Positions 1 to 64,000 of a stretch of DNA of 64,000 bases are shown here, piece by piece; position 1 is the first letter of the stretch, and every line of letters starts with the position of its first letter. The stretch lies in NCBI RefSeq assembly GCF_009914755.1, contig NC_060926.1; one strand, given 5' to 3'. Position numbers and translations under genes: made by a program. Under the pieces are notes generated by a model. That model was not told the DNA's origin, made no database searches, and saw only the letters and a program-made list of their open reading frames with translations. The stretch is from the human T2T-CHM13v2.0 reference genome, Homo sapiens.

Positions 1-217
<217 letters not shown>

Positions 218-37111: not shown

Positions 37112-37273
37112 GTGATGTGGAAACAGCTGTAAAATTTGCAACTCAGCTTATTGACCTGGGAGCAGACATTAGTTTGCGGAGTCGCTGGACAAACATGAAT
37201 GCTTTGCATTATGCTGCTTATTTTGATGTCCCTGAACTTATAAGAGTGATTTTGAAAACGTCGAAACCAAAAG
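37112..37273 (+). CDS. CLIP4: CLIP4 exon 5, ankyrin repeat (GDVETAVKF...NALHYAAYFDVPELIRVILKTSKPK)
   Basis: TTTAG acceptor; 162 nt; non-canonical AAG|GCAAGT donor needed to keep the frame; overlaps ORF 37117..37308. Confidence 0.95.
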
Positions 37274-38411
37274 GCAAGTATTATAAGATCACCTTTAGAT
37301 ATTATTAACTGAACACTTTAGTGGTGGCATAAAAATTATAATTCAAGGATATTTTTTCCTTCTAATCCATCTTGTTTCATATGCCTTTCTACTCCATTTT
37401 ATTTCTGAGATAGTTTAAAATTTCTTTATTGAGTATTAATTACTATCTTTTCTACAAAAGGATTAGTACAGAGAGATACAAAATGAAAGAGTGTTCTCTG
37501 GGTTTTCATATCTCTATAAGTTCTCCAGTATAACACGGATGTTTTATATAATTGATTCTACATGGTTTATGATTCTTTTGCCTTGCTTGGGTAGCCAGAA
37601 ATAGAATAATAAGGTCTTCAGAGATTGGAATAATAAATAATATTTATTTTAGATGGCATTTGGTTCTGAAATTATATAATTCAACTTAAGGGATAATATT
37701 TCAGTTTTTTTTCCCTGTTTTGATGGTGATATCCTGAAATTGAAGATCTGAATGTCTAAGTCACAGTCCTGGTATTTTGATTTTTCTCTCTGGTTCTCTT
37801 GGGGCCCAATTTTCTTTTCTTTCTTTTTTAGAAAAATATGAGAGCAAGCAAATAGTATTAACGTTAAGTTAAAGTGTACAATATTTTCCCCATTGTAGGA
37901 ACATGCTTCAGAGATTCAATAGATAAATTTCCCAGAATGTTCATTTCTAACCTCCAATCTGCATAATTGTCCATTTTCTCTTTAAAATTCTACCTTTTCA
38001 ATTTCTAAGTGATGTTGGGAAGAAAGCCTCTGTCTACACTACTGTGTCTTTAATAATTCAAGAGAGTTTGTTGAGTATTTCTGGGTGGTTTGCAGTTGTA
38101 GGAAGGGTATGTGGGTGTGGTGTTGTTTAGTTGAGGGTAGGATTTGCAGAACCAGAGGTATATTTAAACCCTTGTTATCGAAAATACTCAAGATGGGATT
38201 CCCAAATCTGGAGGATTTCCTGTATTTAAGTATAACATATGATGCTATGTTAAACGTTATTAACATGTCCTTAGAGTTGCAAGATTACTTTTCTCATTAT
38301 GAAATTCAAATTCATTTGTTCAGTAGAGTATTATGAATCAATTTATAGGTAAGCATTTCTATGCTTAATTAGACTTTAACTACTTTGAAAATTCTGCTTT
38401 GTTTTACCTAC

Positions 38412-47163: not shown

Positions 47164-47400
47164 AATGACAAAGGACAGATCCCTGCTGATGTTGTTCCAG
47201 ACCCAGTAGATATGCCGTTAGAGATGGCTGACGCCGCAGCCACTGCTAAGGAAATCAAGCAGATGCTTCTAGATGCGGTGCCTCTGTCATGTAACATCTC
47301 AAAGGCCATGCTCCCAAATTATGATCATGTCACTGGCAAGGCAATGCTTACGTCACTTGGCCTGAAGTTGGGGGATCGTGTTGTTATTGCAGGACAGAAG
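47164..47400 (+). CDS. CLIP4: CLIP4 exon 7 (NDKGQIPADVV...LKLGDRVVIAGQK), start of CAP-Gly 1
   Basis: TGTAG acceptor, AAG|GTACAG donor; 237 nt, phase 0-0; overlaps ORF 47212..47409. Confidence 0.96.
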
Positions 47401-47979
47401 GTACAGTAAGTAACTGCAGTCTCTGAAGCCAGGGTTGTTATGTCCATGACCTATGTTCAAGGACACAGACAGTATGGTCAGAGTTTTGAGTTTTTGAAAA
47501 AGGTTCAACATGTAGGTAGAAAGATGCTTAATGGAAAATGTAAAACTTAGATATGAATTTACTGTTAAGTTATGCTTTAAGAATATAAACTACTTGAACT
47601 TAATAAAGAAGACATCTTTATTTGAATAAAGAGTGGAGTGGAGTAGAACTCTTGAGTGAATTTAGAAGCATGAGCTAAGGGATGATCTAAGGTGGAGGAT
47701 TATCTTTGCAGTCCCCTCTTTCCCCAGTGGTACTTCTCTGACTGCTGCTCCTCCATAGAAATGGAGCACAGGAGACCCTTGCTGTTCATGGGTGTTTGTC
47801 TTTGGGTTCCCACAAATAGGGCAGTCTGAGATATTATGTAACCTGGTGATAAGGATTTGTGTGGAAAAGAGGACTCCTACTCCCATCATCCAGACACCTT
47901 TTTTCCTCCCAAGCTTTTGTTTCCATATTGTATTCATTTATTGCCAGTTGCTTTTTAAAAATATCTCATATGGGAGGTT

Positions 47980-59899: not shown

Positions 59900-60663
59900 G
59901 TAATATACCTTGTAACCTCTGTTTCTCAAAATTTAACTTTTGATGGAACTTTAAAATATGGTAGGAAAACAGTTTATATGGAGGTTAAGTTTTAAAGTTG
60001 GCAAGGGAAAAATTATAGTAAAAATTAAACTTGGAAATCACTGAAGCAGCTCATAGCAAGCTATATACATTATATTTTTTGTGTGTAAAGTACTGCATTA
60101 TGATTCTTTTACTTAAATTAGATAACTACTGGACTAGATTTAAGAAAATAAACGGAAATTCCATAATATAGAGCACTCTACACAAATGTTTCATTTGCCT
60201 TTAGCTATCAAATCATTAGATGAATTGAGCATGAGTATTCCTTCTTGCCTTCTGGTTTAACTCAAAATGTCTTAATATTAAACTTTTGTTGCCTTAAAAC
60301 ATATTAATATCATGTTTAATTTTTGTATAAATAAGAGGGGACTCTACTATGTCATCTAAGGTGAGAGGTGACTGATGGTCATTAGATTAGGTAGTCAGTT
60401 CACATCAATTGATGTGGTGATACCTCTTATATAAGATTGTGATCTTACCGTGGGAATCCTTAAAATATTATTGCTTGTGTTATAAAATCTTTTATATATA
60501 AACTACAATTGCTATTTGGATGAAATTAGGCATTTAATTTGACACTAGATAATCCATAATTGAGGAAGTTAAATGAAGAATTTCAGAAAGATTTGCCTTG
60601 ACAAGCTGCTTCTTGGTCCACATCTTATTTTCCACCGTTTGACACGTTCTTTATCTGTTACAG

Positions 60664-60807
60664 TTGCCCTGCTTGGATCTGTCAGCAGCTGCTCCTCTAC
60701 ATCTTCTTTGGAACACAGACAGAGCTACCCCAAGAAACAGAATGCAATCAGCAGTAACAAGAAGACAATGAGCAAAAGCCCTTCCCTTTCATCCAGAGCC
60801 AGTGCTG
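60664..60807 (+). CDS. CLIP4: CLIP4 exon 11, Ser-rich linker (VALLGSVSSCSSTSS...SSRASA)
   Basis: TTACAG acceptor, weak G|GTATCT donor; 144 nt, phase 1-1. Confidence 0.93.
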
Positions 60808-62227
60808 GTATCTATGGCTTTTTCAACCAGGCTTTCTTGGTGTTTTTTATCTTGGTTTGTTTGTAAGTAGATTTGCTCTTTTTAAATGTGTAGAAGGAAC
60901 CCTTTACTTCAATCAGATTGAACTACTTTTACTCTTCCCCACCTCCCCCGAACCTTAAGCCTTAAGGTCTCTTTGTTTTGCCGTCTGAGATATAAGACTT
61001 TGCATTTATTTTCATGTAATTCATTCTTAGTGGTTTTACCTCATCTGAATTTAGCTTCTTCACAGGCCTTTGTGTCATCTTCATATTTAAAAAGCATGCT
61101 TTCTGTGTTTTTATTCAAGTGATTGTTTTAAAACTATGTTTGCTTAAAACCTAGGAGAAGGTCAGAGGGTCCTCTCCCAGGATGGCAATACCAGCCAGTT
61201 TTGATATGGCTTTTTAACTAGCCGTGAACCTGCATAATCTCACTCAGTCCACATTTCTTCAGTTATTTGTAAAGATACGTAAAACACTTTATCAGACTTC
61301 TTTTTGAAATGACATAGATTTTGTCTGTTGCAGTTCACTTATTTGCCTATATAGCGAACTTGTCCAGAAAGGCAAAAGCCATCTTGGCAAAATACGTTCT
61401 TCATGAACCTCTTTATTACCAGATTCTTTTTTTAGTACTTCTATTAATAGTTCTTGTAGTGAACCAACATTTTATTATGGAAAATATTCATGACAGATTT
61501 CTAAAAAAATACTTGATGGGAAGAAACCTCCAAAGCTCTCAACAATAACATTGACATAATAAGCCTAAAAACTGGGACCCTAAAAGTAGAGAACCTGAAA
61601 GTTTTCCCTGAAATTGTTTGCCTGGAATATTTATTCTCTGAGTGGCTTCCTCTCTCCATACCCCAACCAGTTTTTCTTTATGTTGTGAGGAGCAGAGGTG
61701 AGAAGGTACAGTGCTGACACAGCCATCCTGTTTGTCCAAATTTCATTCACATTTTAAGGCCCCCTTCATTTGGTATTTGCACTTTTGACATTTACTTGAT
61801 TTTAAAATTTATACATGGGTATGGAATTACTTTTTTTTTTTAACCTTCTAAACAAAGTAGTCTAGCGTGCCTATATATTTACCGTTTAAAAAAATAAATT
61901 TGAGGGTTATGTCGACTTAAACAACAGTGAAGATGAAGAGAGTTATCAGAGTGAGAAAGAGGACCTTTCAAAGAGGGAGATGGGCCGAGAATGGGAGATA
62001 TGGGAAAGTCTGTGTTGGGAACCCCAGAGACATGTACTTAAAACATGTTTCTCTAGTGAGTAGATATTCCACTTGTTTTATAGATTTGCATTTGAGGGAG
62101 ATGTAGACTGCAGAGAACGAACAATAATGGAAAGTTAGGTTAAAAAATTAGACAAAGAAGAGTGGAAATAAAGGATTCGGGGAATGGGAAAGGTAGGGAC
62201 CTCGGCCTCATCATATCCCATTGTTAT

Positions 62228-62394
62228 TTACTTTTTATTTTTTATTAAAGACAAGGTCTTGCTGTGTCGCCCAGGCTGGGGTGCAGTGTTGCAATCATAG
62301 TGACTGCAGCCTTCAACTCCTGGACCCAGGTGATCTTCCTACCTTGGCCTCCTAAAGTGCTGGGATTTACAGGCATGAGCCATCATGCCCAGCC
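62228..62394 (-). mobile_element. Alu monomer (hybrid right/left arm)
   Basis: Single-arm length with TSD-like TCCCA(T/C)TGTT. Confidence 0.85.
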
Positions 62395-63023
62395 TGTGTC
62401 CCACTGTTGAACTTGCCATCTTTGGTTCATTGTCTACAGGCAACAAGGGGACGGGCCTGAGGATTTCTGATCACAGAGTCTTGGTTTTAATCTAGGTGTA
62501 CCACTTACTGGATGTTAACAGTGTGTCTTAGTTAATTCCTGAGTTTGTATCTTATTTTTCAGCATAATTTTTAGGAAAAGCACTTTGTAAACTATGAAGT
62601 GCTATAGAATATTGGTTATGATGAGGGCCTTGGACTTACTGGTATAATCCAGACCTTCTCCATGGGTTTATTTTCCTTGTTTAGTTGCTGTGTTTTTGAT
62701 TTCTTCTTTTTTCACAGTATGACTTACCCTCCATCCCATGCCCTCCTCCAGAGTTCTCTACTCCCTCTCAGATGGCAGCTCTTCAAATCTTTGTTTATGT
62801 ACTGATGGGACAAGGCTCAAGCACCCACTTCTTCTCTTTCAGCTGTTATATTTGAACAGCTTTCTAGATCATATTTCTCTAGGACTTCTATGTTTAATAG
62901 TGGGCATTTCAAGGTTTAGTTTTGAATCAGGTTGACAGGGCAGTGGTTTTGTTCTTAATAACAAAATCACTTTAGGATAATTAGAACCGTATAGCAATTT
63001 AACCTTCAAATCACACTACTTTT

Positions 63024-63167
63024 GGCTGGTCACAGTGGCTCATGCCTGTTATCTTAGCACTTTGGGAAGCTGAGGTGGGAGGATCACTCAAGCCCAGGAG
63101 TTTGAGACCAGCTTGGTCAACACAGCAAGACCCTGTTTCTTTAAAAAAAAAAAAAAAAAAAAAAAAA
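63024..63167 (+). mobile_element. FLAM
   Basis: Left monomer plus a ~25-nt A tail; TSD-like TCAAATCACA..ACTTTT. Confidence 0.88.
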
Positions 63168-63249
63168 GTCAAATCACATGACTTTTTATATAATTTACAC
63201 TGAGTCTAAGTGAACTATTAATACTATAATTCTAGTATTTTAGTAGAAT

Positions 63250-63476
63250 AGAAATTGTCAAACTATGGCCCATGGGCCAAATCTGACCTACCACTTGTTT
63301 TTGTAAATAAAGTTCTTTGGAATGCAGCCATGCACATTTGAAAAAAATATATTGTCTATATCTACTTTCATGCTGCAACAGCAGAGTTCAATAGTTGTGG
63401 CAGAGGTGGTATGGCTAGCAAATCCTAACATATTTACTGTCCAGCAATTTGCAGAAACAGTTTGCTGTGACCCCTG
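63250..63476 (-). mobile_element. MER58A
   Basis: CAAACTATGGCCCATGGGCCAAATC...GTAAATAAAGTT...GACCCCTG. Confidence 0.8.
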
Positions 63477-63792
63477 TTCTAGTAGAGATGCTGCAGGCAA
63501 TCTTGGAAGAGTTGGTAGTTTACCAGGGATCAGGTTTTGTGAATTTCCCATGGCAGTAATTTTCCCAGGAAACTCTTCACATTTCCTTTGAGCAGCTTGA
63601 CCTCACATGTGAGAAACACAACTGTAGATGACTTATGTGATGAAAGGCATCAGATATCAAAATCACCAACTAACTAGACTAGTTAGAATACCTAGTGTGA
63701 TTTTTTGGCTAATGTGCTTTTTGAGTTTTTCTCCCTTTGTTTTTTCTCCTCTTTTCCTGCCCTGCCCCTGTATCCCTCCCTGACTTAAACAG

Positions 63793-63927
63793 GTTTGAAT
63801 TCCTCAGCAACATCTACAGCAAATAATAGCCGTTGCGAGGGGGAACTCCGCCTCGGAGAGAGAGTGTTAGTGGTAGGACAGAGACTGGGCACCATTAGGT
63901 TCTTTGGGACAACAAACTTCGCTCCAG
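63793..63927 (+). CDS. CLIP4: CLIP4 exon 12, start of CAP-Gly 2 (GLNSSATST...LRLGERVLVVGQRLGTIRFFGTTNFAP)
   Basis: Long pyrimidine tract + AACAG acceptor, CAG|GTAACT donor; 135 nt. Confidence 0.96.
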
Positions 63928-64000
63928 GTAACTCATCTGCATATTTTCTTAACTTGAATTCTTTAGAATACAAAAGGTTTAAAATTTTACATGTAAATAG

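What the first reader, a model, noticed from the sequence alone, without database searches (positions are those of the whole stretch)
60808..63826. Alternative 5' splice site that could turn CLIP4 into a tail-anchored membrane protein
Seen: exon 11 uses a weak donor (CTG|GTATCT, 60807). A consensus GTAAGT donor sits 55 nt downstream (TT|GTAAGT, 60862/60863). The extension is open in frame (GIYGFFNQAFLVFFILVC). Splicing it to exon 12 shifts the frame and reads L-FEFLSNIYSK-stop (TAA 63824-63826). The product would be ~495 aa ending ...SRASAGIYGFFNQAFLVFFILVCLFEFLSNIYSK*: a ~20-residue hydrophobic segment built from the exon extension plus the alternate frame of exon 12, then a short tail ending in Lys. 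Known: this is the layout of tail-anchored proteins, and the paralog CLIP3/CLIPR-59 reaches membranes through a C-terminal palmitoylated segment. Inference: a splice switch between soluble multi-CAP-Gly CLIP4 and a membrane-bound ankyrin + single CAP-Gly microtubule-organelle tether. The stop is ~100 nt upstream of the next junction, so the isoform could instead be a regulated NMD (poison) product.
Basis: partly seen in the sequence, partly recalled or inferred. Interest (0 to 1): 0.8.

Follow-up and report, generated by a model that had tools for sequence, protein, structure and literature searches.

The report
Known TIA-regulated CLIP4 exon 11 splice choice
The second splice donor 55 bases into CLIP4 intron 11 is real but already annotated and published as a TIA1/TIAL1-controlled splice choice, and the greasy protein tail it would encode is most simply a side effect of the U-rich regulatory sequence on a transcript predicted to be degraded.

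Summary
The weak donor is CTG|GTATCT at 60807/60808. A GTAAGT donor lies at 60862/60863. The 55-nt extension is open in frame. Joined to exon 12 it gives a 495-aa product ending GIYGFFNQAFLVFFILVCLFEFLSNIYSK, with TAA at 63824-63826, 101 nt before the next junction.

The event is not new. The hub annotation lists exon 60664-60862. A 495-aa chimpanzee "CLIP4 isoform 7" carries the same tail. Wang et al. 2010 (PMC2964331) use the variable part of CLIP4 exon 11 as an example: TIA1/TIAL1 crosslink to the U tracts after both donors, and the variable part is TIA-silenced.

The tail passes simple membrane-helix scales (KD19 2.2). Composition explains that: the extension is 55% T, and 33% of open same-composition shuffles are at least as hydrophobic. 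In five non-primate mammals the extension is 86/90 identical, against 174/235 for the adjacent coding part.

Best reading: a conserved TIA-dependent splice switch whose long form is frameshifted and predicted to undergo NMD. A functional tail-anchored isoform is possible but untested, at about 10%. Interest is low to moderate.

The parts
60664..60807 (+). CLIP4 exon 11, constitutive part, encoding a Ser-rich linker between CAP-Gly 1 and CAP-Gly 2.
   Evidence: Hub annotation. Translation. Conservation is 174/235 aa identical in five non-primate mammals.
60805..60813 (+). Intron-distal (upstream) donor CTG|GTATCT, which is weak.
   Evidence: U1 duplex energy is -4.3 kcal/mol, the weakest of the 12 donors scored.
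60808..60862 (+). Variable 55-nt portion of exon 11. It is U-rich (30 of 55 T) and reads GIYGFFNQAFLVFFILVC(L) in frame.
   Evidence: The hub annotation lists exon 60664-60862. Seven of 120 listed database proteins contain it. It is 86/90 aa identical in five non-primates.
60817..60835 (+). The window 10-28 nt downstream of the weak donor, holding T runs at 60819-60823 and 60833-60835. This is the likely TIA1/TIAL1 enhancer site for the upstream donor.
   Evidence: T runs. The positional rule and the CLIP4 exon 11 example come from Wang et al. 2010. I could not see the exact crosslinked nucleotides, which are in Fig. 1C.
60860..60868 (+). Intron-proximal (downstream) donor TTT|GTAAGT. Its GTAAGT holds an in-frame TAA, so intron retention would end the protein at ...ILVCL.
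   Evidence: U1 duplex energy is -7.0 kcal/mol. Read-through translation.
60872..60883 (+). T runs at +10..12 and +17..21 from the downstream donor, forming a second U tract.
   Evidence: The legend of Wang 2010 Fig. [quoted passage not shown]
63793..63927 (+). Exon 12, 135 nt. In the normal frame it starts CAP-Gly 2. After the 55-nt extension it is read one base out of frame.
   Evidence: The Pfam scan puts CAP-Gly 2 at residues 487-551 of the 705-aa form.
63824..63829 (+). Tandem stops TAA TAG in the shifted frame, 101 nt (TAA) upstream of the exon 12/13 junction.

Best explanation
CLIP4 exon 11 has two competing 5' splice sites 55 nt apart. U tracts 10-28 nt downstream of the weak upstream donor (60807) bind TIA1/TIAL1. 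TIA is generally held to help U1 snRNP engage a weak donor, so the weak site wins over the GTAAGT at 60862 and the productive three-CAP-Gly mRNA is made. When TIA activity is low, the downstream donor is used more. The 55 extra bases shift the frame, and a stop falls in exon 12, 101 nt before the next junction. This transcript is therefore predicted to be an NMD substrate, that is, unproductive splicing. The hydrophobic peptide is a by-product of translating a U-rich regulatory element. If any of it is made, a hydrophobic C-tail of this kind is the type that BAG6 triage captures, mostly for degradation.

Shown in print: both isoforms exist, TIA crosslinks at the site, and splicing changes on TIA knock-down. 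Shown here: sequence anatomy, the composition null and conservation. Inferred: NMD and the fate of the protein.
For: Wang et al. 2010 (PMC2964331; I read passages and all of section 11). The Fig. [quoted passage not shown] The event is among the array changes validated by RT-PCR in TIA1/TIAL1 knock-down HeLa cells.

The sequence fits their 10-28 nt rule, with T runs at +12..16 and +26..28 from 60807. The upstream donor has the weakest U1 pairing of the 12 donors scored. The frameshift and the stop 101 nt before the junction are.

Composition null: same-composition shuffles give mean KD 1.67 +/- 0.52 against 1.9 observed, and 33% of open shuffles are at least as hydrophobic. All three frames are open. 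Kesner et al. preprint (abstract and sections 8 and 14): U-rich noncoding sequence gives hydrophobic C-tails, which BAG6 captures.

The extension is more conserved than the neighbouring coding sequence (86/90 against 174/235 aa). That is the pattern expected of a regulated splice element. No stable RNA fold is present (z = +1.29), which fits a single-stranded protein-binding site.
Against: No NMD data were seen for this isoform. The 50-55 nt rule is predictive, not absolute. TIA binding to U tracts is degenerate and would not by itself demand near-invariance of all 18 codons. The tail does pass crude membrane-helix thresholds: KD19 2.2 and Eisenberg <H> 0.75 over 21 residues. Public protein sets carry the 495-aa form as a protein (P0002). 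The legend of Wang's Fig. 5 calls the CLIP4 exon 'enhanced' while the text calls it 'silenced'. I follow the text, because the CHD9 minigene data in the same section fit the text. The conservation sample is biased: only species whose gene models include the extension could be seen.
Confidence: 0.7

Rival explanations
1. The long isoform is translated into a functional tail-anchored protein with ankyrin repeats, one CAP-Gly domain and a C-terminal membrane helix. It would tether microtubules to an organelle.
For: There is a single hydrophobic segment at residues 475-493 (KD19 2.2), and no other window in the protein reaches 1.6. Eisenberg <H> is 0.75 with a low moment of 0.20 over 21 residues. 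The segment ends 2-9 residues from the C-terminus. The domain layout is confirmed. The extension is near-invariant in squirrel, tree shrew, rabbit and two bats. Both bat models end after the same number of residues with a hydrophobic stretch and a basic end, FEFLSNICSK and FEFFSKFWRK. The paralog CLIPR-59 needs a C-terminal palmitoylated segment for membrane and raft targeting (passages of PMC2797139).
Against: Composition alone explains the hydrophobicity. The uninterrupted apolar core is only 12 residues (AFLVFFILVCLF), flanked by N, Q and E. The stop is 101 nt upstream of a junction. The last residues differ between species (SNIYSK, SNICSK, SKFWRK) and follow the variable normal frame of exon 12. 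Near-invariance of a membrane helix, greater than that of the adjacent coding exon, looks more like RNA-level constraint. No paper links CLIP4 to a tail anchor: one search found 3 papers, one inspected is a gene list only, and the other two were judged from the listing. The bat and chimpanzee proteins are gene models, not evidence of expression.
Confidence: 0.1
2. Use of the downstream donor is splicing noise with no regulatory role. A strong GTAAGT happens to lie near a weak donor, and the cell simply discards the product.
For: GTAAGT is common in the window, at 19 on the + strand or about 0.3 per kb. The product is frameshifted. No function has been reported for the isoform.
Against: The 55 nt and the frame through them are kept almost unchanged across Euarchontoglires and two bats, better than the coding exon next to them. 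Donor choice responds to TIA1/TIAL1 levels. Selection could easily remove a harmful decoy donor.
Confidence: 0.15

Closest known systems
TIA1/TIAL1-dependent alternative 5' splice sites (variable-length exons; Wang et al. 2010, PMC2964331)
   Same: A weak donor is followed by U tracts 10-28 nt downstream. TIA crosslinks there, and the isoform ratio changes on TIA knock-down. CLIP4 exon 11 is itself one of the paper's examples.
   Different: Nothing differs in kind, because this is the published case. The paper, as far as I read it, does not discuss the coding consequence: the frameshift, the premature stop and the hydrophobic tail.
Unproductive splicing coupled to NMD (conserved 'poison' elements, as in SR protein genes; recalled from general knowledge, no paper read here)
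   Same: A highly conserved alternative region puts a stop more than 50-55 nt upstream of a downstream junction.
   Different: NMD sensitivity was not seen in any source I could read. CLIP4 is not a splicing factor, so this would be control by TIA in trans, not autoregulation.
Hydrophobic C-tails from translated noncoding, U-rich sequence, triaged by BAG6 (Kesner et al. 2022 preprint, 10.1101/2022.07.20.500724)
   Same: A U-rich, normally intronic sequence becomes the C-terminus and codes for a hydrophobic tail. The composition null reproduces the hydrophobicity.
   Different: This sequence is strongly conserved, unlike typical noncoding tails, and BAG6 dependence is untested.
Tail-anchored membrane proteins, and CLIPR-59/CLIP3 C-terminal membrane targeting
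   Same: A single hydrophobic segment lies within 30 residues of the C-terminus of an otherwise soluble ankyrin plus CAP-Gly protein. The paralog is membrane-targeted through its last 30 residues.
   Different: CLIPR-59 uses palmitoylated tandem cysteines, not a membrane helix. The CLIP4 tail arises from an intron extension plus a frameshift and shares no ancestry with the CLIPR-59 tail. Insertion and stability are untested.

Membership tests
TIA1/TIAL1-regulated alternative 5' splice site | U-rich tract 10-28 nt downstream of the regulated donor. | tested here: met
   T runs lie at +12..16 and +26..28 from 60807, and at +10..12 and +17..21 from 60862.
TIA1/TIAL1-regulated alternative 5' splice site | TIA crosslinking at the site and a splicing change on TIA depletion. 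| not testable with these tools
   Reported for the variable portion of CLIP4 exon 11 by Wang et al. 2010.
TIA1/TIAL1-regulated alternative 5' splice site | The TIA-helped donor is intrinsically weak. | tested here: met
   U1 duplex energy is -4.3 kcal/mol, the weakest of 12 donors, and the site lacks +4A and +5G. No MaxEnt model was available.
NMD-coupled unproductive splice isoform | Premature stop more than 50-55 nt upstream of an exon-exon junction. | tested here: met
   TAA at 63824-63826 is 101 nt before the donor at 63927. By the hub annotation the selected transcript has 16 exons, so exons follow exon 12.
NMD-coupled unproductive splice isoform | The isoform is stabilised when UPF1 or translation is inhibited. 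| not testable with these tools
   No RNA-seq data were available. Of the 7 papers holding 'CLIP4' and 'nonsense-mediated', none of those I opened or judged from the listing treats this isoform.
Tail-anchored membrane protein | A single membrane-spanning segment within about 30 residues of the C-terminus and no other hydrophobic segment or signal peptide. | tested here: inconclusive
   KD19 is 2.2 at residues 475-493, and every other window is at most 1.31. Eisenberg <H> is 0.75. However, the uninterrupted apolar core is 12 residues, and a position-independent sum on a recalled Hessa scale is +0.4 to +1.3 for 19-21 residues. No dedicated predictor was available.
Tail-anchored membrane protein | A stable protein is inserted post-translationally, with the N-terminus in the cytosol. 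| not testable with these tools
   This needs cell biology. No publication was found.
Tail-anchored membrane protein | The hydrophobicity exceeds what sequence composition gives. | tested here: not met
   33% of open same-composition shuffles are at least as hydrophobic as the real extension. This is my own added criterion, not part of the textbook definition.

The most novel reading that the evidence does not exclude
The near-invariant 55-nt element may do double duty. It would be the TIA-sensing splice switch, and in cells where the long mRNA escapes NMD it would also encode a genuine C-terminal membrane anchor. That would convert CLIP4 into a one-CAP-Gly, membrane-bound tether, a splice-generated analogue of the palmitoyl-anchored paralog CLIPR-59. 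The 637-aa human model (P0003), in which the same segment is internal and the frame is restored, would be a second membrane-associated form.
Probability: 0.1. Interest if true: 0.6.

Novelty: already known. Interest (0 to 1): 0.25.

Why it matters
As it stands the finding re-discovers an annotated and published splice choice, so its value lies in interpretation. It is a clean illustration of how a U-rich splicing enhancer, once included in an exon, automatically reads as a membrane-like tail. Such tails should therefore be tested against a composition null before being called anchors. If the long form were shown to be NMD-sensitive, CLIP4 dosage would be tied to TIA1/TIAL1 activity. If instead the tail were shown to insert into membranes, that would give poorly understood CLIP4 a localisation switch and would be an example of a regulatory RNA element co-opted as a membrane anchor.

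Tried and rejected
1. AlphaFold2 of the 495-aa chimpanzee form with a 12-sequence alignment. Mean pLDDT was 36 and pTM 0.30, too poor to use. The tail (467-494) is drawn as a helix at pLDDT of about 40-52, which says little.

2. RNA structure linking the two donors. The fold was -19.6 kcal/mol with z = +1.29, and 182 of 200 shuffles fold at least as well, so no structure is supported.

3. Rfam scan of 60000-64000 on both strands gave 0 matches.

4. Supplementary Table S4 and figures of Wang 2010 were closed. I could not see primers, isoform ratios or the crosslinked bases.

5. Earlier findings of this scan were not open.

6. Literature searches for the isoform:
- 'CLIP4' + 'isoform' gave 85 papers, 25 listed.
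- 'CLIP4' + 'nonsense-mediated' gave 7 papers. Two that I opened were false matches to 'CLIP' with a superscript 4.
- 'CLIP4' + 'tail-anchored' gave 3 papers. One that I opened holds only gene lists.
- 'CLIP4' + 'TIA1' gave 6 papers.
- 'CLIP4' + 'exon 11' gave 4 papers.
- Only Wang 2010 treats this event.

7. Nucleotide-level conservation and synonymous or non-synonymous patterns could not be done, because no mammalian genomes are held. I used protein models instead, which hide synonymous changes and are an ascertained sample.

8. MaxEntScan, TMHMM and DeepTMHMM were not available.

Full report
**What is in the sequence**

Exon 11 of CLIP4 (60664-60807) ends CTG and its intron begins GTATCT. 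Fifty-five bases further on lies TTT|GTAAGT, so the alternative exon end is 60862. The 55 bases contain 30 T. In the exon 11 frame they read GIYGFFNQAFLVFFILVC.

Joining 60862 to exon 12 (63793) shifts the frame by one base. The reading becomes L-FEFLSNIYSK and then TAA at 63824-63826, with TAG directly after. The product is 495 aa. The stop is 101 nt upstream of the exon 12 donor at 63927.

If the intron were simply retained, the in-frame TAA inside GTAAGT would end the protein at ...ILVCL.

**Is it more than chance?**

The individual features are not remarkable.
- All three frames of the 55 nt are open, and 57% of same-composition shuffles are open.
- GTAAGT occurs 19 times on the + strand of the 64-kb window.

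The upstream donor is truly weak. Its pairing to the U1 5' end is -4.3 kcal/mol, the weakest of the 12 donors scored. The downstream donor scores -7.0. The U1 motif was recalled from memory, and no MaxEnt model was available.

**It is already known**

The hub annotation lists exon 60664-60862 among the exons of other RefSeq transcripts.

A protein search with the exon 11 plus extension translation (P0001) found 137 proteins at E <= 0.001 among 207 candidates, of which 120 were listed. Seven of the 120 contain the extension:
- a 495-aa chimpanzee "CLIP4 isoform 7" with exactly the predicted tail;
- a 637-aa human entry, in which the extension is followed in frame by a later exon (VTDSLDT...);
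- models from thirteen-lined ground squirrel, tree shrew, rabbit and two bats.

Wang et al. 2010 (PLoS Biol, PMC2964331) use this gene as an example. The Fig. [quoted passage not shown] It lists this event among the array changes validated by RT-PCR in TIA1/TIAL1 knock-down HeLa cells.

The legend of Fig. 5 labels CLIP4 'enhanced' and CHD9 'silenced', the reverse of the text. The CHD9 minigene results in the same section agree with the text, so I follow the text.

The exon numbering matches. 60664-60807 is the eleventh exon of the selected transcript in the hub table. An independent paper's 'exon 12 skipping in CLIP4' (PMC6954394, passages) matches the in-frame 135-nt exon 63793-63927.

**How it most likely works**

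Wang et al. define the TIA-enhancing position as 10-28 nt downstream of a donor. T runs lie at +12..16 and +26..28 from the weak donor, and at +10..12 and +17..21 from the strong one. The region has no predicted stable fold (z = +1.29), as expected for a single-stranded protein-binding tract.

The simplest mechanism is that TIA proteins on the first U tracts help U1 onto the weak upstream donor. This gives the productive mRNA, which encodes three CAP-Gly domains. With less TIA, the GTAAGT donor is used more. The frameshifted mRNA carries a stop 101 nt before a junction, so by the 50-55 nt rule (established knowledge) it is a predicted NMD substrate. NMD itself is inferred; I found no data on it.

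**The tail-anchor idea**

By crude scales the tail could span a membrane.
- The best 19-residue Kyte-Doolittle window is 2.2 at residues 475-493.
- It is the only stretch of the protein at or above 1.6, and the 705-aa form has none.
- Eisenberg mean hydrophobicity over 21 residues is 0.75, with a low moment of 0.20.

Against that, the uninterrupted apolar core is 12 residues, flanked by N, Q and E. A position-independent sum on a recalled Hessa scale is slightly positive for 19-21 residues.

The more important point is that composition explains the hydrophobicity. Shuffles of the same 55 bases give a mean KD of 1.67 +/- 0.52, against 1.9 observed, and 33% of the open shuffles are at least as hydrophobic. 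Among read-through tails of 29 aa or more from all CLIP4 introns in the window, 3.1% reach KD19 >= 2.2 and 15% reach 1.6. The tail is therefore unusual only to the extent that the tract is unusually T-rich, and the T-richness has a documented RNA-level function.

Kesner et al. (2022 preprint; abstract and sections 8 and 14) show that U-rich noncoding sequence generally yields hydrophobic C-tails. BAG6 captures these tails, mostly for proteasomal degradation and occasionally for membrane targeting.

**Conservation**

In the five non-primate models the 18 extension residues are 86/90 identical to human. The 47 residues of the constitutive part of exon 11 are 174/235 identical.

The out-of-frame exon 12 tail is FEFLSNIYSK in human and chimpanzee, FEFLSNICSK in Rhinolophus and FEFFSKFWRK in Pipistrellus. 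The normal-frame start of exon 12 varies among mammals.

The extension is therefore under stronger constraint than the coding sequence beside it. That fits a regulated splice element. It is more invariance than a membrane helix would normally need. It is also more than degenerate U-tract binding alone would need, so something is left unexplained.

There are caveats. Only species whose gene models include the extension can be seen. Models are not evidence of expression. Synonymous changes are invisible at protein level.

**Comparison with known systems and verdict**

This is the published TIA-regulated variable exon, so it belongs to that class by identity. It has the formal layout of NMD-coupled unproductive splicing, but NMD sensitivity is untested. 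It resembles a tail-anchored protein only in hydropathy and position.

The comparison with CLIPR-59 is an analogy only. That paralog is targeted by palmitoylated tandem cysteines in its last 30 residues (passages of PMC2797139).

No paper I could find connects CLIP4 with a tail anchor.

My odds are:
- about 0.7 that the main reading is right: a TIA-controlled switch, an unproductive long form and a by-product tail;
- about 0.15 for unregulated noise;
- about 0.1 for a functional anchored isoform.

Interest is low to moderate (0.25).

Noticed in passing
window 47398-47411: The annotated donor of the exon ending at 47400 is AAG|GTACAG. A perfect GTAAGT starts 5 nt further on, at 47406. Use of this second donor would add 5 nt and shift the frame. 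The hub table lists no exon ending at 47405.
   Followed up: no
window 37271-37281: The exon ending at 37273 has a GC donor, AAG|GCAAGT, so this is a GC-AG intron in CLIP4.
   Followed up: no
window 63793-63927: Exon 12 is 135 nt, so skipping it keeps the frame. Seven of the 120 listed proteins join ...SRASAG directly to YWYGIELEKPH. That would remove the first half of CAP-Gly 2. An ASO off-target study reports CLIP4 exon 12 skipping (PMC6954394).
   Followed up: partly
P0003 (human, 637 aa), around residues 467-486: A human database entry carries the 55-nt extension but then continues in frame into the VTDSLDT... exon, with no premature stop. The hydrophobic segment is therefore internal, and two CAP-Gly domains remain. 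This isoform would not be an NMD target by the junction rule.
   Followed up: partly
window 63793-63922: The hub table lists an exon of another transcript ending at 63922. That is 5 nt short of the donor and is not followed by GT (the sequence is TCCAGG). No AATAAA lies just upstream. It looks like a truncated transcript end rather than a splice or poly(A) site. If it were real, the shifted-frame stop would lie in a last exon and escape NMD.
   Followed up: partly
window 60863-60868: The GTAAGT donor contains an in-frame TAA. Retention of intron 11 would therefore give a 485-aa product ending ...FFILVCL, also with a hydrophobic C-terminus.
   Followed up: yes
CLIP4 gene, position not determined: A study of DIS3 depletion uses CLIP4 as an example of a gene that makes prematurely terminated, exosome-degraded sense transcripts (PMC6403362, passages). 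This is unrelated to exon 11 as far as I could read.
   Followed up: no
PMC2964331, Fig. 5 legend versus text: The legend calls the CLIP4 variable exon 'enhanced' and the CHD9 one 'silenced', while the text says the opposite. The CHD9 minigene data agree with the text.
   Followed up: partly
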